NCBI GenBank assembly: GCA_965223265.1
Contig: OZ244999.1
Location: 384,001-448,000 of the forward strand
DNA from: Planctomycetota bacterium
Lineage (GTDB): Bacteria > Planctomycetota > UBA8108 > SXIK01
Direction of reading: 5' to 3'
DNA: 64,000 bases
The notes below the pieces were generated by a model. The model saw nothing but the letters and a program-made list of their open reading frames with translations, had not been told where the DNA came from and ran no database searches. Numbering within the stretch: the stretch's first letter is position 1; every line of letters starts with the position of its first letter. This document shows positions 2,069 to 61,699 of the stretch, piece by piece. Made by a program: the position numbers and the translations under genes.

Positions 2069-2386
2069 ACAGAGACGGAGACAGAGACAGAGGCGGAGAC
2101 AGAGGCGGAGACAGAGACGGAGACAGAGACGGAGACAGAGACGGAGACAGAGACAGAGGCGGAGACAGAGACGGAGACAGAGACAGAGGCGGAGACAGAG
2201 ACGGAGACAGAGACGGAGACAGAGACGGAGACAGAGGCGGAGACAGAGGCGGAGACAGAGGCAGACACGGACCGCCGACGCAGACCCCACACGCCCACGC
2301 CCACGCAAACGCCCACGCAAACGCAAACGCAAACGCAAACGCAAACGCCCACGCCCACGCAAACGCAAACGCAAACGCAAACGCAA
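2069..2386 (+). repeat. Bipartite hexamer repeat module (copy 2)
   Basis: About 33 GAGACA/GAGACG/GAGGCG units (2072-2269), a short linker, then 16 ACGCCC/ACGCAA units (2291-2386). Confidence 0.97.
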
Positions 2387-2442
2387 ATCCGTCCGAAAAC
2401 AGCGGACGGTTCCCGGTCAGAACACGGACACGAGTCAGAGCG

Positions 2443-17414: not shown

Positions 17415-18020
17415 TCAGGCGTCTTTGGGCTTTTTTTCCGTCGTCGGCTGAGCGGCGTCCTTCTTGAGGATCCGACCGCTCATGCTGCCTCCATGCCCGG
17501 GGCCGAACCAGGTGCCGGTGTAGATGCCGCGGTAGACTAAGACGCGTGCGGTGTAAGTGCCAAGCCCCGGAACGTTCAGGTCGGTCACCGAAATCACCGG
17601 CGTATCTCCCGCCCAGAGCACTTTGACCGGAATCGGAAACGGGACGGTCACGTCTTTGCCACCGTACTTGACTCGCACGCCGTTGAAGAGCCACAGGTCT
17701 TTGCCAGCCTTCTTCACCGAGTCAATTTGATACAGCTCTTCGCGTTCCTCGCCGAGCTCGTCACCTTGACTAAGCCGCCAATGTCCGGACAGGGTCGCCT
17801 TACGGAAGGTCTTCTCGAACTCCTTTTCCAGTTCGGTCAGTTCCTGTGTCGCCCCGGGCTGTTGCTGAGGCTCCGCAGCCGGCGGTGCGTCCTGTGCTTT
17901 GGGGTCCTTCGCATCTCGGGCGGCGACGCGCACGTGGGCACCTGTAAGGCTGATCGCGATGATCGCAACGCCCACCTGAACGATTCGAGACAACAGAGTT
18001 CGCTGGCTGCTCATGGTCAC
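17415..18020 (-). CDS. Hypothetical exported protein
   Basis: Signal peptide followed by a compact domain (WAGDTPVISVTDL.VPGLGTYTARVL...GTW). Confidence 0.7.
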   Translation of the reverse strand: MTMSSQRTLLSRIVQVGVAIIAISLTGAHVRVAARDAKDPKAQDAPPAAEPQQQPGATQELTELEKEFEKTFRKATLSGHWRLSQGDELGEEREELYQIDSVKKAGKDLWLFNGVRVKYGGKDVTVPFPIPVKVLWAGDTPVISVTDLNVPGLGTYTARVLVYRGIYTGTWFGPGHGGSMSGRILKKDAAQPTTEKKPKDA

Positions 18021-18195
18021 TCCTGCGTTTTCGAAGGGGATTTGCAGTTCACCATGAGTCTACACCACAATGCGGCGGACACCAGAGGCGGAGACAGAGA
18101 CGGAGATGGGATGAGAAGGCCAGTCCCTCCACGCAGTATCCGAAGAAGGATCTGCAACATTAACCGGGCTTTGAACCCAGAAGGAGAGACTGACC

Positions 18196-19272
18196 ATGTC
18201 CCAAAGTAATCAAACACAGCGTATGTTGTCTATCGGCCTTGATCTCGGCGACCGCCTTAGCCACTTGGTGGCGATAACGCTCGATGGAGAGATCCTCGCC
18301 AACGAGCGCGTGGCGACGACACGCTCGGCGCTCGCTAGGCGCTTTGATGAGTTCCCGCGAGGCTCGCGCGTGGTCTGCGAGGCGGGCACGCACTCGCCGT
18401 GGGTCAGTGCGGTGCTCGAAGAGCTCGGCTTCGAGGTGATCGTTGCCAATCCTGTCTGCGCAGGGCGTGCTCTTGCCGCCAACGGTCGCAAGAACGACGA
18501 GCTCGACGCCGTCACCCTGGCGACGCTGGGCTGGGGCAGCCCGCGCCTGTTGCGACCGGTTCGTCACCGCCAGCTCTCAGCCCAAAACGACCTGGCAGTC
18601 ATCCGTGCCCGTGACGCAGTAGTGCGCACTCGCACGACACTGATCAACAGCGTGCGAGGTCTCGTCAAGTCGAGCGGGTATCGCCTCAAGAGCTGCTCAA
18701 GCGCCGCCTTCCACTACAAAGTCAGGGAGGATATTCCCGAGGAGCTCGAGGCGGCGGTGCTACCGATGCTCGAGCAGATCGGGCAGCTTAGCGCCACGGT
18801 GCGCAGCTACGACAGAGAGATCAAGGCGCTCTCAGAGAAGTACCCAGAGACCAAGAGCCTTCAAGAGATCAACGGCGTAGGGCCACTGACGGCGCTGGCG
18901 TTTGTCTTGAGCCTGGAGAATCGGGAGCGTTTCTCCAAGAGCCGCAAGGTCGGGGCCTATCTCGGACTCGTCCCGAAGCAGCACGACTCTTCGTCGAGGA
19001 CTCCACAGCTTCGTATTTCGAAGTACGGCAATAGCTACCTACGTCGACTGCTTGTCGGCAGCGCGCATTACATCTTGGGGCCGTTCGGGGAGGACTGCGA
19101 TCTGAGGCGTTTTGGTGAGCGGCTGGGGCAGCGCGGCGCCGCTCGCGGTAAGAAGCAAGCTACGGTCGCCGTGGCACGAAAGCTCGCCGTGCTGATGCAC
19201 CACCTCTGGGCCAGCGGCGAGCGCTACGATCCACTCTACAGCGCCTCGCGCTCGAAGCGTCGCTCGGCCTGA
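18196..19272 (+). CDS. IS110-family transposase/recombinase
   Basis: DEDD RuvC-like motifs IGLDLG, VCEAG, KNDELDA. C-terminal INGVGPLTA, AYLGLVP..HDSS, ISKYGN.YLRRLL, AVARKLA. RBS AGGAG. Confidence 0.96.
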   Translation: MSQSNQTQRMLSIGLDLGDRLSHLVAITLDGEILANERVATTRSALARRFDEFPRGSRVVCEAGTHSPWVSAVLEELGFEVIVANPVCAGRALAANGRKNDELDAVTLATLGWGSPRLLRPVRHRQLSAQNDLAVIRARDAVVRTRTTLINSVRGLVKSSGYRLKSCSSAAFHYKVREDIPEELEAAVLPMLEQIGQLSATVRSYDREIKALSEKYPETKSLQEINGVGPLTALAFVLSLENRERFSKSRKVGAYLGLVPKQHDSSSRTPQLRISKYGNSYLRRLLVGSAHYILGPFGEDCDLRRFGERLGQRGAARGKKQATVAVARKLAVLMHHLWASGERYDPLYSASRSKRRSA

Positions 19273-19341
19273 GCCGCCTGTGTCATTACGAGGCGACTGA
19301 AAAACCTCTGAAGGATCTACCCGCGTGAAAAGTCTCGTCTT

Positions 19342-19513
19342 GGTGACTGCGATCTCTGCACTGAACCGATCGAGGGCGTCCAAACTTCCTTCGATCATAC
19401 CAGGAGTTCGCGACGGAGTGTGCAGCACCACGACGGTTCGGACCCCAACTTGCACAGAGGACTCCAGGACAGACTCCTCACCCAAAGTGCGTATGGAAGG
19501 CTGGCTTCAACCG
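19342..19513 (+). ncRNA. Predicted bridge/seek RNA of the IS110 element
   Basis: Two stem/internal-loop/hairpin units. Loop 1 carries TCTCTGC and GACGGAG (target arms). Loop 2 carries ACCCCAACT and ATGGAAG (circle-junction arms). Folded by eye. Confidence 0.72.
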
Positions 19514-19571
19514 CGCCATAGACTCTTTCGAGAACTTCAGGAAACCTCAGCGCACCAAAACGCTCTTGGCC

Positions 19572-20165
19572 AGGCAGCAAGGGCATTTGCTGCCCAGCCG
19601 CCAAACGAGACGCTTCGCGTGCGGACTCGTTGCCGCTCGCGGGCCCCTCCCTGCCGCGCAGGCCTCCCACCCTACAACTGACCTTCGCTGGGCGCAGAGA
19701 ACGATTGACCTCGCTGCGCTCGGGCGGCGACCACGTTCGCCTCTCTTGACTTTTTGGCCTTCTCATGGAAGGCAGCAAGGGCATTTGCTGCCCAGCCGCC
19801 AAACGAGACGCTTCGCGTGCGGACTCGTTGCCGCTCGCGGGCCCCTCCCTGCCGCGCAGGCCTCCCACCCTACAACTGACCTTCGCTGGGCGCAGAGAAC
19901 GATTGACCTCGCTGCGCTCGGGCGGCGACCACGTTCGCCTCTCTTGACTTTTTGGCCTTCTCATGGAAGGCAGCAAGGGCATTTGCTGCCCAGCCGCCAA
20001 ACGAGACGCTTCGCGTGCGGACTCGTTGCCGCTCGCGGGCCCCTCCCTGCCGCGCAGGCCTCCCACCCTACAACTGACCTTCGCTGGGCGCAGAGAACGA
20101 TTGACCTCGCTGCGCTCGGGCGGCGACCACGTTCGCCTCTCTTGACTTTTTGGCCTTCTCATGGA
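19572..20165 (+). repeat. Three identical tandem 198-bp copies of the IS right end
   Basis: Units 19572-19769, 19770-19967 and 19968-20165, each ending TTGACTTTTTGGCCTTCTCATGGA. Confidence 0.97.
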
Positions 20166-20442
20166 AGGCGGAGACAGAGACGGAGGCGGAGACAACAGAC
20201 CGCCCACGCCCACGCCCACGCCCACGCCCACGCAAACGCCCACGCCCACGCCCACGCAAACGCAAACGCAAACGCAAACGCAAACGCAAACGCAAACGCA
20301 AACGCAAACGCAAACGCAAACGCAAACGCAAACGCAAACGCAAACGCAAACGGGCGCCGGGGTCGGCGGCGGCGATCGAGCCAACGGCAGAGAAGAACTC
20401 TGCTGCTGCGGGCGTTCGTGCGGCGGCGGTTTTGTCGATCGT

Positions 20443-20588: not shown

Positions 20589-20912
20589 ATGGGCTTTCTT
20601 GCTCTGGATCACACTTTTGGCATCGTTCGACAGCTGCGTCCCCTCGTCGCGAGCATCCGTCGTCACGACTCGAAGCTTGCCGCTCAGCTGCGCGATGCCG
20701 GTTCGTCGGTGGCACTCAACCTTGGCGAGGGGAATCGGCGTCAGGGCCGTGACCGCGGGCATCTTTGGCGCATTGCTTCGGGCAGCGCCGAAGAGGTGCG
20801 CACGGCGCTCAAGGTTGCTGAGGCGTGGGGCTACCTCGATGCAGAACAGACCGACACGGTACTTGCGGACATCGATGCGCTACAAGCGATGCTCTGGAAA
20901 CTGACACGCTGA
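20589..20912 (+). CDS. Four-helix-bundle protein (23S rRNA IVP/TIGR02436, Avd-like), 107 aa
   Basis: LAAQLRDAGSSVALNLGEGNRR...IASGSAEEV...A.AWGYL motif. GGAG RBS before ATG 20589. Confidence 0.88.
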   Translation: MGFLALDHTFGIVRQLRPLVASIRRHDSKLAAQLRDAGSSVALNLGEGNRRQGRDRGHLWRIASGSAEEVRTALKVAEAWGYLDAEQTDTVLADIDALQAMLWKLTR

Positions 20913-20954: not shown

Positions 20955-21178
20955 GACGAGGAGGCAGATACAGATACTGAGTCAGAAGCAGAGTACCGGC
21001 ACGCCCACGCCCACCAAACGCCCACGCCCACGCCCACGCCCACGCCCACGCCCACGCAAACGCCCACGCCCACGCAAACGCCCACGCCCACGCAAACGCC
21101 CACGCCCACGCCCACGCCCACGCCCACGCAAACGCAAACGCAAACGCAAACGCAAACGCAAACGCAAACGCAAACGCC
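20955..21178 (+). repeat. Bipartite hexamer repeat module (copy 4)
   Basis: GAGGCA GATACA GATACT GAGTCA GAAGCA GAGTAC, a CGGC linker, then about 29 ACGCCC/ACGCAA units (21001-21178). Confidence 0.95.
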
Positions 21179-61391: not shown

Positions 61392-61504
61392 GCGCGCCTC
61401 AGGGAGTGCCGTGTTCGTGCTTCGATGTCCCGAAATCCTGACTCAGGCGCGGCGCGAATTCAAGTCAGGCGGTGGAATTGGCGAGTCGCTGGTCGTCGAC
61501 TTCA

Positions 61505-61699
61505 CGGAGTCAGACGCAGAGTCAGATACAGATACGGAGCCAGACGCAGAGTCAGATACAGATACGGAGCCAGACGCAGAGTCAGATACAGATACGGAGC
61601 CAGACGCAGAGTCAGATACAGATACAGATACAGGTGGCCGGCACGCCCACGCCCACTCCCACGCCCACGCCCACTCCCACGCCCACTCCCACGCCCACG
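61505..61699 (+). repeat. Bipartite hexamer repeat module (copy 5), no associated gene
   Basis: 30-bp higher-order unit CAGACGCAGAGTCAGATACAGATACGGAGC x ~3.8, a CCGGC linker, then ACGCCC/ACTCCC units (61643-61699). Confidence 0.93.

What the first reader, a model, noticed from the sequence alone, without database searches (positions are those of the whole stretch)
18104..20167. IS110/IS1111 bridge recombinase apparently programmed against the hexamer repeat
Seen: deleting the element leaves GAGACGG-AG-GCGGAGACA, an exact continuation of the repeat. The element has 7 nt (including the AG core) outside the left IR and 3 nt between the right IR and the second AG. In the right non-coding end, GACGGAG (19412-19418) equals the left target arm plus core. 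TCTCTGC (19353-19359) is complementary to the right arm GCGGAGA with one G-U pair. ATGGAAG (19493-19499) equals the right end plus core. ACCCCAACT (19442-19450) matches the reverse complement of the left end at 7 of 9 positions. Each pair sits in a stem-enclosed internal loop. Known: IS110 recombinases use bridge/seek RNAs, and some target REP repeats. Inference: this element uses the simple-sequence cassette as a multi-copy safe harbour, and it may also recombine or reshuffle those arrays.
Basis: partly seen in the sequence, partly recalled or inferred. Interest (0 to 1): 0.8.

Follow-up and report, generated by a model that had tools for sequence, protein, structure and literature searches.

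The report
RNA-guided insertion sequence targeting a microsatellite
This is a mobile element of the known IS110/IS1111 kind whose own small guide RNA is written to match a six-base DNA repeat, so it lands again and again in those repeat tracts; it is a well-supported natural example of a known mechanism, not a new one.

Summary
Window 18104-20167 holds an IS1111-group element: a 358-aa DEDD recombinase, 12-bp subterminal inverted repeats, an AG core at both junctions, and a 3' non-coding region with a structured RNA at 19329-19512.

In 23 distinct relatives with different insertion sites, the two target guides match each element's own flanks (0 of 20,000 permutations reach the observed match). 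The donor guides co-vary with the element ends.

All four recombinase-bearing copies in this genome sit in GGAG-type hexamer arrays at GACRG-AG|GCRGAGA. One sister copy carries a G-to-A change in the left-target guide (19415) that matches its own flank, GACAGAG. Thirty-eight free 19-nt sites remain.

Each unit ends in the right end plus core, a pattern recently described for IS110 loci.

Reshuffling of the arrays is untested. This is a new member of a known kind, with moderate interest.

The parts
18086..18105 (+). Left half of the target: end of a GGAG-type hexamer array, ending in left arm GACGG and core AG (18104-18105)
18106..18195 (+). Left end: 5-nt extension ATGGG, left subterminal IR ATGAGAAGGCCA (18111-18122), 5' leader with a GGAG ribosome-binding site
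   Evidence: the same end sequence is found in 15 of 28 relatives' loci
18196..19272 (+). IS110-family DEDD recombinase gene, 358 aa, intact in all four copies
   Evidence: PF01548 and PF02371, each E 7e-18; NF033542 195 bits against cutoff 140; D16/E62/D101/D104 and S265 conserved with relatives; no stops in the four copies
19329..19512 (+). Bridge/seek RNA gene (extent of the covariance-model match)
   Evidence: R1 102.5 bits, full model; consensus fold 97.1% paired, 13 of 24 pairs with compensatory change
19353..19359 (+). Right-target guide TCTCTGC, complementary to the top strand of the right arm GCRGAGA
19412..19418 (+). Left-target guide GACGGAG, identical to left arm plus core; position 19415 is A in copy C, whose flank is GACAGAG
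19442..19450 (+). Right-donor guide ACCCCAACT, complementary at 7 of 9 to core plus left-end start
   Evidence: compensatory changes in L015, L027, L034
19493..19499 (+). Left-donor guide ATGGAAG, identical to the last 5 nt of the right end plus core
   Evidence: co-varies with the right end in L015, L025, L027, L030, L034
19574..19771 (+). First 198-bp right-end unit, present once in copies B and C; holds a -35-like TTGACT (19746-19751), right IR (19755-19766), GGA and core AG
19772..20167 (+). Second and third identical 198-bp units, found only in the window copy; each starts GCAGCAA and ends with right IR + GGA + AG
   Evidence: 100% identity, 3.0 copies
20168..20352 (+). Right half of the target (GCGGAGACAGAG...) followed by CGCCCA and CGCAAA hexamer arrays

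Best explanation
This is an IS1111-group member of the IS110 family of RNA-guided insertion sequences.

Proposed mechanism. The recombinase gene is followed by a gene for a structured bridge/seek RNA of about 180 nt. One internal loop of that RNA carries two target guides. The 5' one (UCUCUGC) pairs with the top strand of the right arm, GCRGAGA. The 3' one (GACGGAG) pairs with the bottom strand of the left arm plus core, GACGG-AG. A second loop carries two donor guides. ACCCCAACU pairs with the core plus the start of the left end. AUGGAAG pairs with the end of the right end plus the core. The recombinase excises the element as a circle in which right end, AG core and left end are joined. It then exchanges strands at AG with a GACRG-AG-GCRGAGA site.

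Because that site is a junction between two units of a GGAG-type hexamer microsatellite, dozens of equivalent intergenic landing sites exist.

What is shown: the anatomy, the conserved fold, the guide/target and guide/donor co-variation, and the array-specific insertion.

What is inferred: transcription and processing of the RNA, circle formation, and a junction promoter built from TTGACT in the right end and a -10-like hexamer completed by the left end.
For: Recombinase:
- PF01548 + PF02371 and NF033542 'IS110 family RNA-guided transposase', 195 bits.
- Catalytic D/E/D/D and Ser are conserved.

Element architecture:
- 12-bp subterminal IRs.
- 90-nt 5' versus 499-nt 3' non-coding region.
- AG at both junctions, and no other duplication.

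RNA:
- A 13-sequence alignment gives a fold with 97.1% of cells paired.
- 13 of 24 pairs show compensatory change, against 3.4 +/- 1.2 in shuffles (0 of 500 reach the observed value). Slid controls give 0-6.
- The model built from the alignment gave 50 matches in 52 sources, 49 of them full-length. Copies B and D are each counted twice because loci L002 and L004 overlap. It gave 5 matches in the own genome.

Guides across the family (23 distinct elements with different targets):
- The left-target guide matches the element's own flank at a mean of 6.39 of 7, against 3.70 for other elements' flanks. It is 7 of 7 in 18 of 23 elements.
- The right-target guide matches at 6.61 of 9, against 4.48.
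- 0 of 20,000 permutations reach either observed sum.

Donor guides:
- The left-donor guide follows the right end: ATAGAAG in L015, L027, L030 and L034, and ATAGAAC with core AC in L025.
- The right-donor guide shows compensatory changes in L015, L027 and L034.

Within this genome:
- 4 of 4 recombinase-bearing copies lie in hexamer arrays at the same junction type, with different surrounding sequence.
- Copy C has guide GACAGAG and flank GACAGAG. Copies A and D have guide GACGGAG and flank GACGGAG.
- With about 40 substitutions in 1,672 nt between A and C, the chance of that exact co-change is about 0.01-0.02 (my arithmetic).

Guide order agrees with IS1111-type seekRNAs (PMC11187229, abstract and section 9) and with bridge RNAs placed in the right end of IS1111 elements (PMC11208160, passages).

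TTGAC lies 15-22 nt from the element end in 29 of 32 distinct right ends.
Against: - There are no expression data. No listed sequencing run is on record as RNA.
- No circle-junction or empty-site joint appeared among the assembled contigs that were laid. Contigs are poorly suited to show one.
- Rfam holds no matching family.

This element departs from its relatives at three guide-adjacent points:
- After the right-target guide it has AC where most relatives have the core complement CT. A CU follows one nt later.
- After the left-target guide plus core it has UG where most relatives repeat the first two nt of the left end (AT).
- One pair of the donor-loop stem is A.A.

Other points:
- Copy B's left arm (GTCGG) has one uncompensated mismatch to its guide. 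Copy A's right arm needs a U.G pair.
- The 19353 T/C difference between copy lineages does not track the flanks.
- The serine motif reads SS rather than the usual SG.
Confidence: 0.9

Rival explanations
1. The guide-like matches are chance. The element finds the arrays through protein-DNA recognition or a structural feature of simple repeats, not through RNA pairing.
For: The right-target guide motif alone is common in shuffles (18%). The hexamer target is low-complexity, and its two arms are related (GGAG...GGAG). The two target guides can therefore also pair with each other in a single-sequence fold.
Against: The exact 7-mers occur together in only 0.085% of shuffles. Homologous columns of the RNA track each relative's own, unrelated target (0 of 20,000 permutations). 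A guide/flank co-change exists between sister copies.
Confidence: 0.04
2. The four copies are not independent insertions. They were copied together with their repeat cassette by segmental duplication, so the shared context says nothing about targeting.
For: Copies B and D lie 56 bp apart in one array. The arrays belong to a recurring composite cassette.
Against: The sequence outside the arrays differs between A, B/D and C. The immediate arms also differ: GACGG/GCGGAGA, GTCGG/GCAGAGA and GACAG/GCAGAGA. Solo right ends sit next to three further arrays or array-flanked sites.
Confidence: 0.03
3. For the 3 x 198-bp right end only: the multiplication is ordinary replication slippage or unequal crossing-over at the 4-6-nt microhomology AGGC(R)G in a slippage-prone region. 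The recombinase is not involved.
For: Microhomology is present at the unit boundary. The units are 100% identical, which points to a recent event. Copy D's right-end deletion has only a GC microhomology and no AG core, which shows illegitimate events do occur here.
Against: The homology starts exactly at the AG core and extends only into a right-arm look-alike (GCAGCAA against GCAGAGA, 5 of 7). A 47%-identical relative (L029) has the same architecture: 3.0 x 323 bp at 100% identity, with the boundary at AG followed by a 9-nt copy of its own right arm. L015 repeats its last 46 bp 2.2 times. A 2026 preprint reports tandem non-coding units beside IS110 recombinase genes (n = 468) whose boundaries keep almost only left-donor matches (10.64898/2026.08.14.744561, passages read).
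Confidence: 0.45

Closest known systems
IS1111-family elements with seekRNA (ISEc11, ISPa11, ISKpn4, ISPst6; Siddiquee et al. 2024, PMC11187229; abstract and sections 6, 9 and 13 read)
   Same: DEDD recombinase, subterminal inverted repeats and a long non-coding region downstream of the gene. That region encodes an RNA whose top-strand-complementary match lies 5' of its bottom-strand match. Insertion is site-specific into a repeated sequence.
   Different: No sequence of those elements was on hand, so relatedness of protein or RNA was not measured. The target here is a hexamer microsatellite junction. The recombinase is 358 aa (330-350 reported) and its serine motif reads SS instead of SG/TG. 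In those elements the two target matches overlap at the core; here they do not overlap in register.
IS621 bridge RNA system (Durrant et al. 2024, PMC11208160, passages; Hiraizumi et al. 2024, PMC11208158, passages)
   Same: Two-loop logic: a target loop and a donor loop, each with one guide per strand, and a dinucleotide core. The C-terminal domain is detectably related (8wt6 E 3.2e-10 over residues 197-345).
   Different: IS621 belongs to the IS110 group. Its RNA is in the left end, its guide order is reversed, its subterminal repeats are only 2-3 bp, and its core is CT. The N-terminal domains are not matched by phmmer at E<=0.001.
ISPpu9 / ISPpu10 of Pseudomonas putida (Pares-Guillen et al. 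2025, PMC12288879; abstract and first part of the discussion read)
   Same: AG core, insertion into an abundant intergenic repeat (REP/BIME), extra modules bounded by end-like boxes downstream of the recombinase gene, and tandem duplication of such modules.
   Different: The repeated unit here keeps only a right end and has no left-end box, so it is not a MITE-like module. The target is a tandem simple repeat, not a palindromic REP.
Tandem expansion of IS110 loci (bioRxiv 10.64898/2026.08.14.744561; passages on tandem repeats read)
   Same: Non-coding repeat units accumulate next to the recombinase gene, and their boundaries keep left-donor matches only.
   Different: That survey is statistical. 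Here the boundary can be read base by base: core AG plus a 5-of-7 mimic of the right target arm. I could not see its figures or supplements.

Membership tests
IS110 family RNA-guided (DEDD) transposases | N-terminal RuvC-like DEDD domain plus C-terminal Transposase_20 domain | tested here: met
   PF01548 residues 13-158 and PF02371 residues 221-290, each E 7e-18. NF033542 scores 195 bits against cutoff 140, over the full length.
IS110 family RNA-guided (DEDD) transposases | Catalytic D, E, D, D and the serine of the C-terminal motif are present | tested here: met
   D16, E62, D101, D104 and S265 align with invariant columns of about 50 relatives. Equivalence to IS621 D11/E60/D102/D105/S241 (PMC11208158 passage) is by position and was not aligned here.
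IS110 family RNA-guided (DEDD) transposases | No target-site duplication other than a shared core dinucleotide at both junctions | tested here: met
   AG is present at 18104-18105 and 20166-20167. The flanks continue the array exactly.
IS1111 group | Subterminal inverted repeats of 7-17 bp with short terminal extensions | tested here: met
   12-bp IR at 18111-18122 and 20151-20162, with 5-nt and 3-nt extensions. The length range comes from the PMC11208160 passage.
IS1111 group | The longer non-coding region lies downstream of the recombinase gene and encodes the guide RNA | tested here: met
   90 nt upstream against 499 nt downstream. The RNA model match is at 19329-19512. No guide-like match lies in the left end apart from the end itself.
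IS1111 group | The top-strand-complementary target match lies 5' of the bottom-strand match | tested here: met
   19353-19359 precedes 19412-19418. The same order holds in all aligned relatives.
IS1111 group | Recombinase related over its full length to that of IS1111, with a GL-P----S(t)G motif | tested here: inconclusive
   The motif here is GLVPKQHDSS, which is SS. Relatives have SG, TG, SA or SS. No IS1111 protein was available for comparison.
Bridge / seek RNA | Guide segments co-vary with target and donor across related elements | tested here: met
   Permutation test gives 0 of 20,000 for both target guides. Donor-guide co-variation is shown. A co-change between sister copies occurs at 19415.
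Bridge / seek RNA | The RNA is made, binds the recombinase and is required for recombination | not testable with these tools
   No run on record as RNA. This needs small-RNA sequencing and a recombination assay.
Bridge / seek RNA | Match to a curated RNA family | tested here: not met
   No Rfam 15 family matched at E<=1 in 17900-20400. Whether Rfam 15 holds any bridge RNA family was not established.

The most novel reading that the evidence does not exclude
The element evolves its address in place, and its enzyme also acts on half-sites. A single G-to-A change in the left-target guide of one sister lineage retargeted it to the commoner ACAGAG variant of the microsatellite: 27 of the 38 free 19-nt sites carry GACAGAG and 11 carry GACGGAG. 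The same recombinase, pairing only the right end plus core with an internal look-alike of the right target arm, produced the perfect threefold right-end multiplications. These are seen here and, independently, in a 47%-identical relative that also sits between simple-sequence arrays.
Probability: 0.35. Interest if true: 0.6.

Novelty: new member of a known kind. Interest (0 to 1): 0.45.

Why it matters
The mechanism, RNA-guided recombination by IS110/IS1111 elements, has been established since 2024, so this is not a new kind of system. It offers four things.

1. A clean natural case in which two sister copies in one genome differ by one guide base and by the matching target base. That is reprogramming as it happens in nature.
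2. A target class I did not find described for this family: the unit junction of a hexamer microsatellite. Three literature searches turned up no such case. They were narrow, so this is a weak negative.
3. A covariance model for a widespread clade of IS1111-type guide RNAs. The clade spans several phyla according to the record titles. Its donor ends are nearly invariant and its targets are diverse.
4. Base-level examples of right-end-only tandem expansion, bearing on a mechanism that a 2026 preprint calls unresolved.

For engineering, the clade's conserved donor with its variable target loop is a ready-made natural specificity series.

Tried and rejected
Rfam scan of 17900-20400 at E<=1: no match.

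A single-sequence fold of 19273-19580 pairs the two target guides with each other. This follows from the target being a direct repeat. I set that fold aside in favour of the comparative fold.

Anchor-by-regex extraction of guides failed for 9 of 25 elements and mis-anchored several more. I replaced it with the covariance-model alignment.

Closer relatives were sought three ways:
- 401 genomes of the phylum
- species-representative genomes
- plasmids

Nothing above 53% protein identity was found outside this genome, and plasmid hits were all 34% or lower. No named ISfinder relative can therefore be given.

Sequencing runs: no RNA holder is listed. Contigs of four runs were laid on 17900-19790. 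They bridge the left junction and show right-junction loose ends that continue ...AGACAGAG..., some of which I traced to copy B and to the solo right ends. They show no circle junction, no empty site and no joint at the unit boundary. Contigs cannot show these reliably.

The copy number of the unit is therefore not independently checked.

Supplementary Table 5 of PMC11208160 and the supplementary figures of PMC11187229 may already hold RNA models or targets for this clade.

Copy D's deletion was considered as a recombinase product and rejected. Its junction has a GC microhomology and no AG core.

L065's 99-bp repeat was first suspected to be another right-end multiplication. It is a host tandem repeat in which every unit carries an intact target.
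Full report
WHAT IS THERE

The window lies in a 9.18-Mb single-contig genome. Between 18104 and 20167 sits a mobile element inserted in a GGAG-type hexamer array.

Reading from the left:
- Array sequence ends ...GAGACGG-AG.
- The left end follows: ATGGG plus a 12-bp inverted repeat, ATGAGAAGGCCA (18111-18122).
- Next is a 358-aa ORF (18196-19272).
- Then comes a 3' non-coding region.
- The right end is TGGCCTTCTCAT-GGA-AG.
- The array resumes as GCGGAGACAGAG..., in phase.

The ORF is an IS110-family DEDD recombinase:
- PF01548 and PF02371, each E 7e-18.
- NF033542 'IS110 family RNA-guided transposase', 195 bits against a cutoff of 140.
- The C-terminal half matches the solved ISCro4 and IS621 transposases (E 6e-11 and 3e-10).
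- The catalytic D/E/D/D and the serine are conserved with about 50 relatives. The motif reads SS rather than SG.

COPIES AND THEIR SITES

The genome holds four recombinase-bearing copies.
- A is the window copy.
- B (5606517-5608188, minus strand) is 100% identical, with one right-end unit.
- C (5870047-5871723, minus strand) is 97% identical.
- D (5604924-5606460, minus strand) is 97% identical. It lies 56 bp downstream of B in the same array and has lost its right end.

All four lie in hexamer arrays at the same kind of unit junction:
- A: GACGG-AG | GCGGAGA
- B: GTCGG-AG | GCAGAGA
- C: GACAG-AG | GCAGAGA
- D: GACGG-AG | (deleted)

The arms and the sequence beyond the arrays differ, so these are separate insertions and not a duplicated segment.

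Three solo right-end remnants sit at 9028002-9028092, 5652435-5652528 and 1962301-1962342. Each is followed by AG|GCAG, and two of them continue directly into arrays.

Thirty-eight free sites matching GACRGAGGCRGAGACAGAG remain in the genome: 27 with GACAGAG and 11 with GACGGAG. The reversed-pattern control is also frequent (72 hits). This shows that the arrays, not the exact word, drive the count. A looser 14-nt pattern occurs 74 times, and 129 arrays of four or more units exist. Two of 20 other genomes of the same order carry such sites, so the arrays are not a product of this element.

THE GUIDE RNA

Apart from the end itself, the only 7-mers the 499-nt 3' region shares with target or donor are GACGGAG (19412-19418, left arm plus core) and ATGGAAG (19493-19499, right end plus core). 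Both are in the same register. In 20,000 dinucleotide shuffles both occur together in 0.085%.

The stronger evidence is comparative. Relatives of the recombinase at 36-53% identity come from genomes of this phylum. They also come from MAGs titled Acidobacteriota, Planctomycetota, Desulfobacteraceae, Gemmatimonadetes, Trueperaceae and others. Fifteen of the 28 loci examined share almost the same ends (AG|ATGGG-ATGAGAAGGCC ... GGCCTTCTCAT-GGA|AG) but have unrelated flanks.

Their 3' regions align to a common scaffold. RNAalifold gives five helices, and 97.1% of cells are paired. Thirteen of 24 pairs carry compensatory changes, against 3.4 +/- 1.2 in column shuffles (0 of 500 reach the observed value) and 0-6 when partners are slid by 1-3 columns. 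This element contributes its own compensatory pair: U-A where 12 others have G-C.

A covariance model of the scaffold gave 50 matches in 52 sources, 49 of them full-length and essentially all just downstream of the recombinase gene. B and D are each counted twice because loci L002 and L004 overlap. The model gave five matches in the own genome.

GUIDE/TARGET AND GUIDE/DONOR CO-VARIATION

I took guide columns from the model alignment. I took element ends from the donor side only: the next downstream copy of the left-donor guide, and the inverted repeat. Ends could be assigned, and guides were non-redundant, for 23 distinct elements. I dropped rows without assignable ends, duplicates, and this genome's other three copies.

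Results of the permutation test:
- The left-target guide equals the element's own left arm plus core at a mean of 6.39 of 7, against 3.70 for other elements' arms. It is 7 of 7 in 18 of 23 elements.
- The right-target guide complements the element's own core plus right arm at a mean of 6.61 of 9, against 4.48.
- No permutation of 20,000 reached either observed sum.
- The scoring allowed a one-base register slip for the left guide and the best offset in a 13-nt window for the right guide.

In the first set, whose ends were defined by inverted repeat alone, the right guide is a perfect 9 of 9 in L013, L017, L025, L026 and L034.

The donor guides behave the same way:
- The left-donor guide is ATAGAAG where the right end is ...CATAGAAG (L015, L027, L030, L034), and ATAGAAC where the core is AC (L025).
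- The right-donor guide changes C to T, C to T and C to A opposite left-end changes G to A, G to A and G to T in L015, L027 and L034.

Within this genome, the RNA interval 19329-19512 differs among the four copies at only three positions: 19353, 19385 and 19415. The change at 19415 (G in A, B and D; A in C) turns the guide into GACAGAG, which is exactly copy C's flank. A and C differ by about 40 substitutions in 1,672 nt. The chance of that base at that position is therefore about 0.01-0.02 (my arithmetic).

The guide order is right-target, left-target, right-donor, left-donor. It agrees with the statement that in IS1111-type seekRNAs the top-strand match is 5' of the bottom-strand match, the reverse of the IS110 type (PMC11187229, abstract and section 9). 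It also agrees with the placement of bridge RNAs in the right end of IS1111 elements (PMC11208160, passages).

WHERE THIS ELEMENT DEPARTS FROM ITS RELATIVES
- Most relatives follow the right-target guide directly with the core complement (CT). Here the two bases are AC, and CU comes one base later.
- Most relatives follow left guide plus core with the first two bases of the left end. This is usually AT, but AA in L016 and in this genome's paralogue, and TT in L050, each matching its own left end. Here the bases are UG. By analogy with the 'handshake' bases of IS621 (PMC11208158 passages) these may help strand exchange. That is an inference.
- After left-donor guide plus core this element has GC, the first two bases of its right target arm. 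L033 has TT, and its own arm starts TT.
- Copy B tolerates one arm mismatch, and copy A needs one U.G pair.
- The four copies are 97-100% identical with intact genes, so the element has been active recently despite these departures.

THE TRIPLED RIGHT END

In the window copy, 19572-20169 is a perfect 3.0 x 198-bp repeat. B and C have one unit. Each unit starts GCAGCAA and ends with the inverted repeat, GGA and AG. The unit boundary is therefore right end, core, then a 5-of-7 look-alike of the right target arm. The first unit is preceded by ...GGCC-AG.

The same design appears independently in L029, a 47%-identical element. It has 3.0 x 323 bp at 100% identity, each unit containing a whole guide-RNA gene. 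The boundary is at AG followed by TCCGGGTGAC, against its true right arm TCCGGGTAAC. L015 repeats its last 46 bp 2.2 times up to the contig end.

A 2026 preprint reports tandem non-coding units beside IS110 recombinase genes (n = 468). Their boundaries keep almost only left-donor matches, and the authors call the cause unresolved (10.64898/2026.08.14.744561, passages). A 2025 preprint saw tandem cargo repeats as rare by-products of excision (10.1101/2025.10.25.684509, passages).

I judge enzyme-made and slippage-made origins about equally likely. Copy D's deletion has no AG at its junction and looks illegitimate. The copy number rests on the assembly alone.

OTHER INFERENCE

A TTGAC hexamer lies 15-22 nt, mostly 21, before the element end in 29 of 32 distinct right ends. 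In a circle, a -10-like hexamer would be completed by the first two bases of the left end. This fits the junction promoters known for this family (PMC12288879, discussion). It is not tested here.

VERDICT

The system is a new member of a known kind. Its interest lies in three things: the microsatellite target, the natural single-base retargeting between sister copies, and the readable right-end expansions.

Noticed in passing
window 2069-2387, 18086-20352 (split by the element), 21000-21177, 61504-61699: Composite simple-sequence tracts recur: a GAGACR/GAGGCR or GATACR hexamer array directly followed by CGCCCA/CGCAAA hexamer arrays. The 21000-21177 tract has only the second kind. They lie between genes. 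There are 129 arrays of four or more GGAG-type units genome-wide. Their function is unknown.
   Followed up: partly
window 20589-20912 (+): A 107-aa gene of family PF05635 (23S rRNA-intervening-sequence / four-helix-bundle protein, E 2.6e-15) is flanked on both sides by hexamer arrays. The arrays are followed by a conserved stretch (GCGGCGATCGAGCC...CTCTGCTGCT) that is also seen beside copy D's array.
   Followed up: no
G000:C1:2059860-2061530 (minus strand), locus L077: A second IS1111-type element sits in the same genome. Its recombinase is 43% identical and it has its own guide RNA (model R1, 93 bits). Its left guide is CACGAAG and its flank is AACGAAG. Its right end looks damaged (CTTCT-ACGAAG instead of CTTCTCATGGAAG). 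It too lies between simple-sequence arrays.
   Followed up: partly
L029 (G167:C7), 396-448, 444-1421, 2668-2730: A 47%-identical relative in another family of the phylum sits between a (TCCACG)x10 array and a GGGTAAC-type heptamer array. It carries three perfect 323-bp units, each with a complete guide-RNA gene and a right end.
   Followed up: partly
L065 3741-4052: A 40%-identical relative is inserted in the first unit of a 99-bp host tandem repeat. Every unit of that repeat carries an intact copy of its target, GGGAGCCAG|GCACCTCC.
   Followed up: partly
G000:C1:9028002-9028092, 5652435-5652528, 1962301-1962342, 1447514-1447629: Three solo right-end remnants (42-94 bp) are each followed by AG|GCAG. 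There is also one internal fragment of the 198-bp unit without an end. These are decayed older insertions.
   Followed up: partly
L055 1236-1306; L034 2646-2677: Two relatives have short tandem duplications at the left junction (37 bp x 2 and 13 bp x 2.5). In both, the left target arm resembles the start of the left end.
   Followed up: no
window 19573-19594: Each 198-bp unit opens with an 8-bp-stem hairpin, GGCAGCAA-GGGCAT-TTGCTGCC. It may be a terminator or a processing site for the guide RNA. It was not tested.
   Followed up: no
coded runs X2 and X4 laid on window 17900-19790: Right-junction loose ends continue with array sequences that do not exactly match any copy in this assembly (agreement 0.85-0.9). 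This hints at further or variant insertion sites in related cells of those samples.
   Followed up: no
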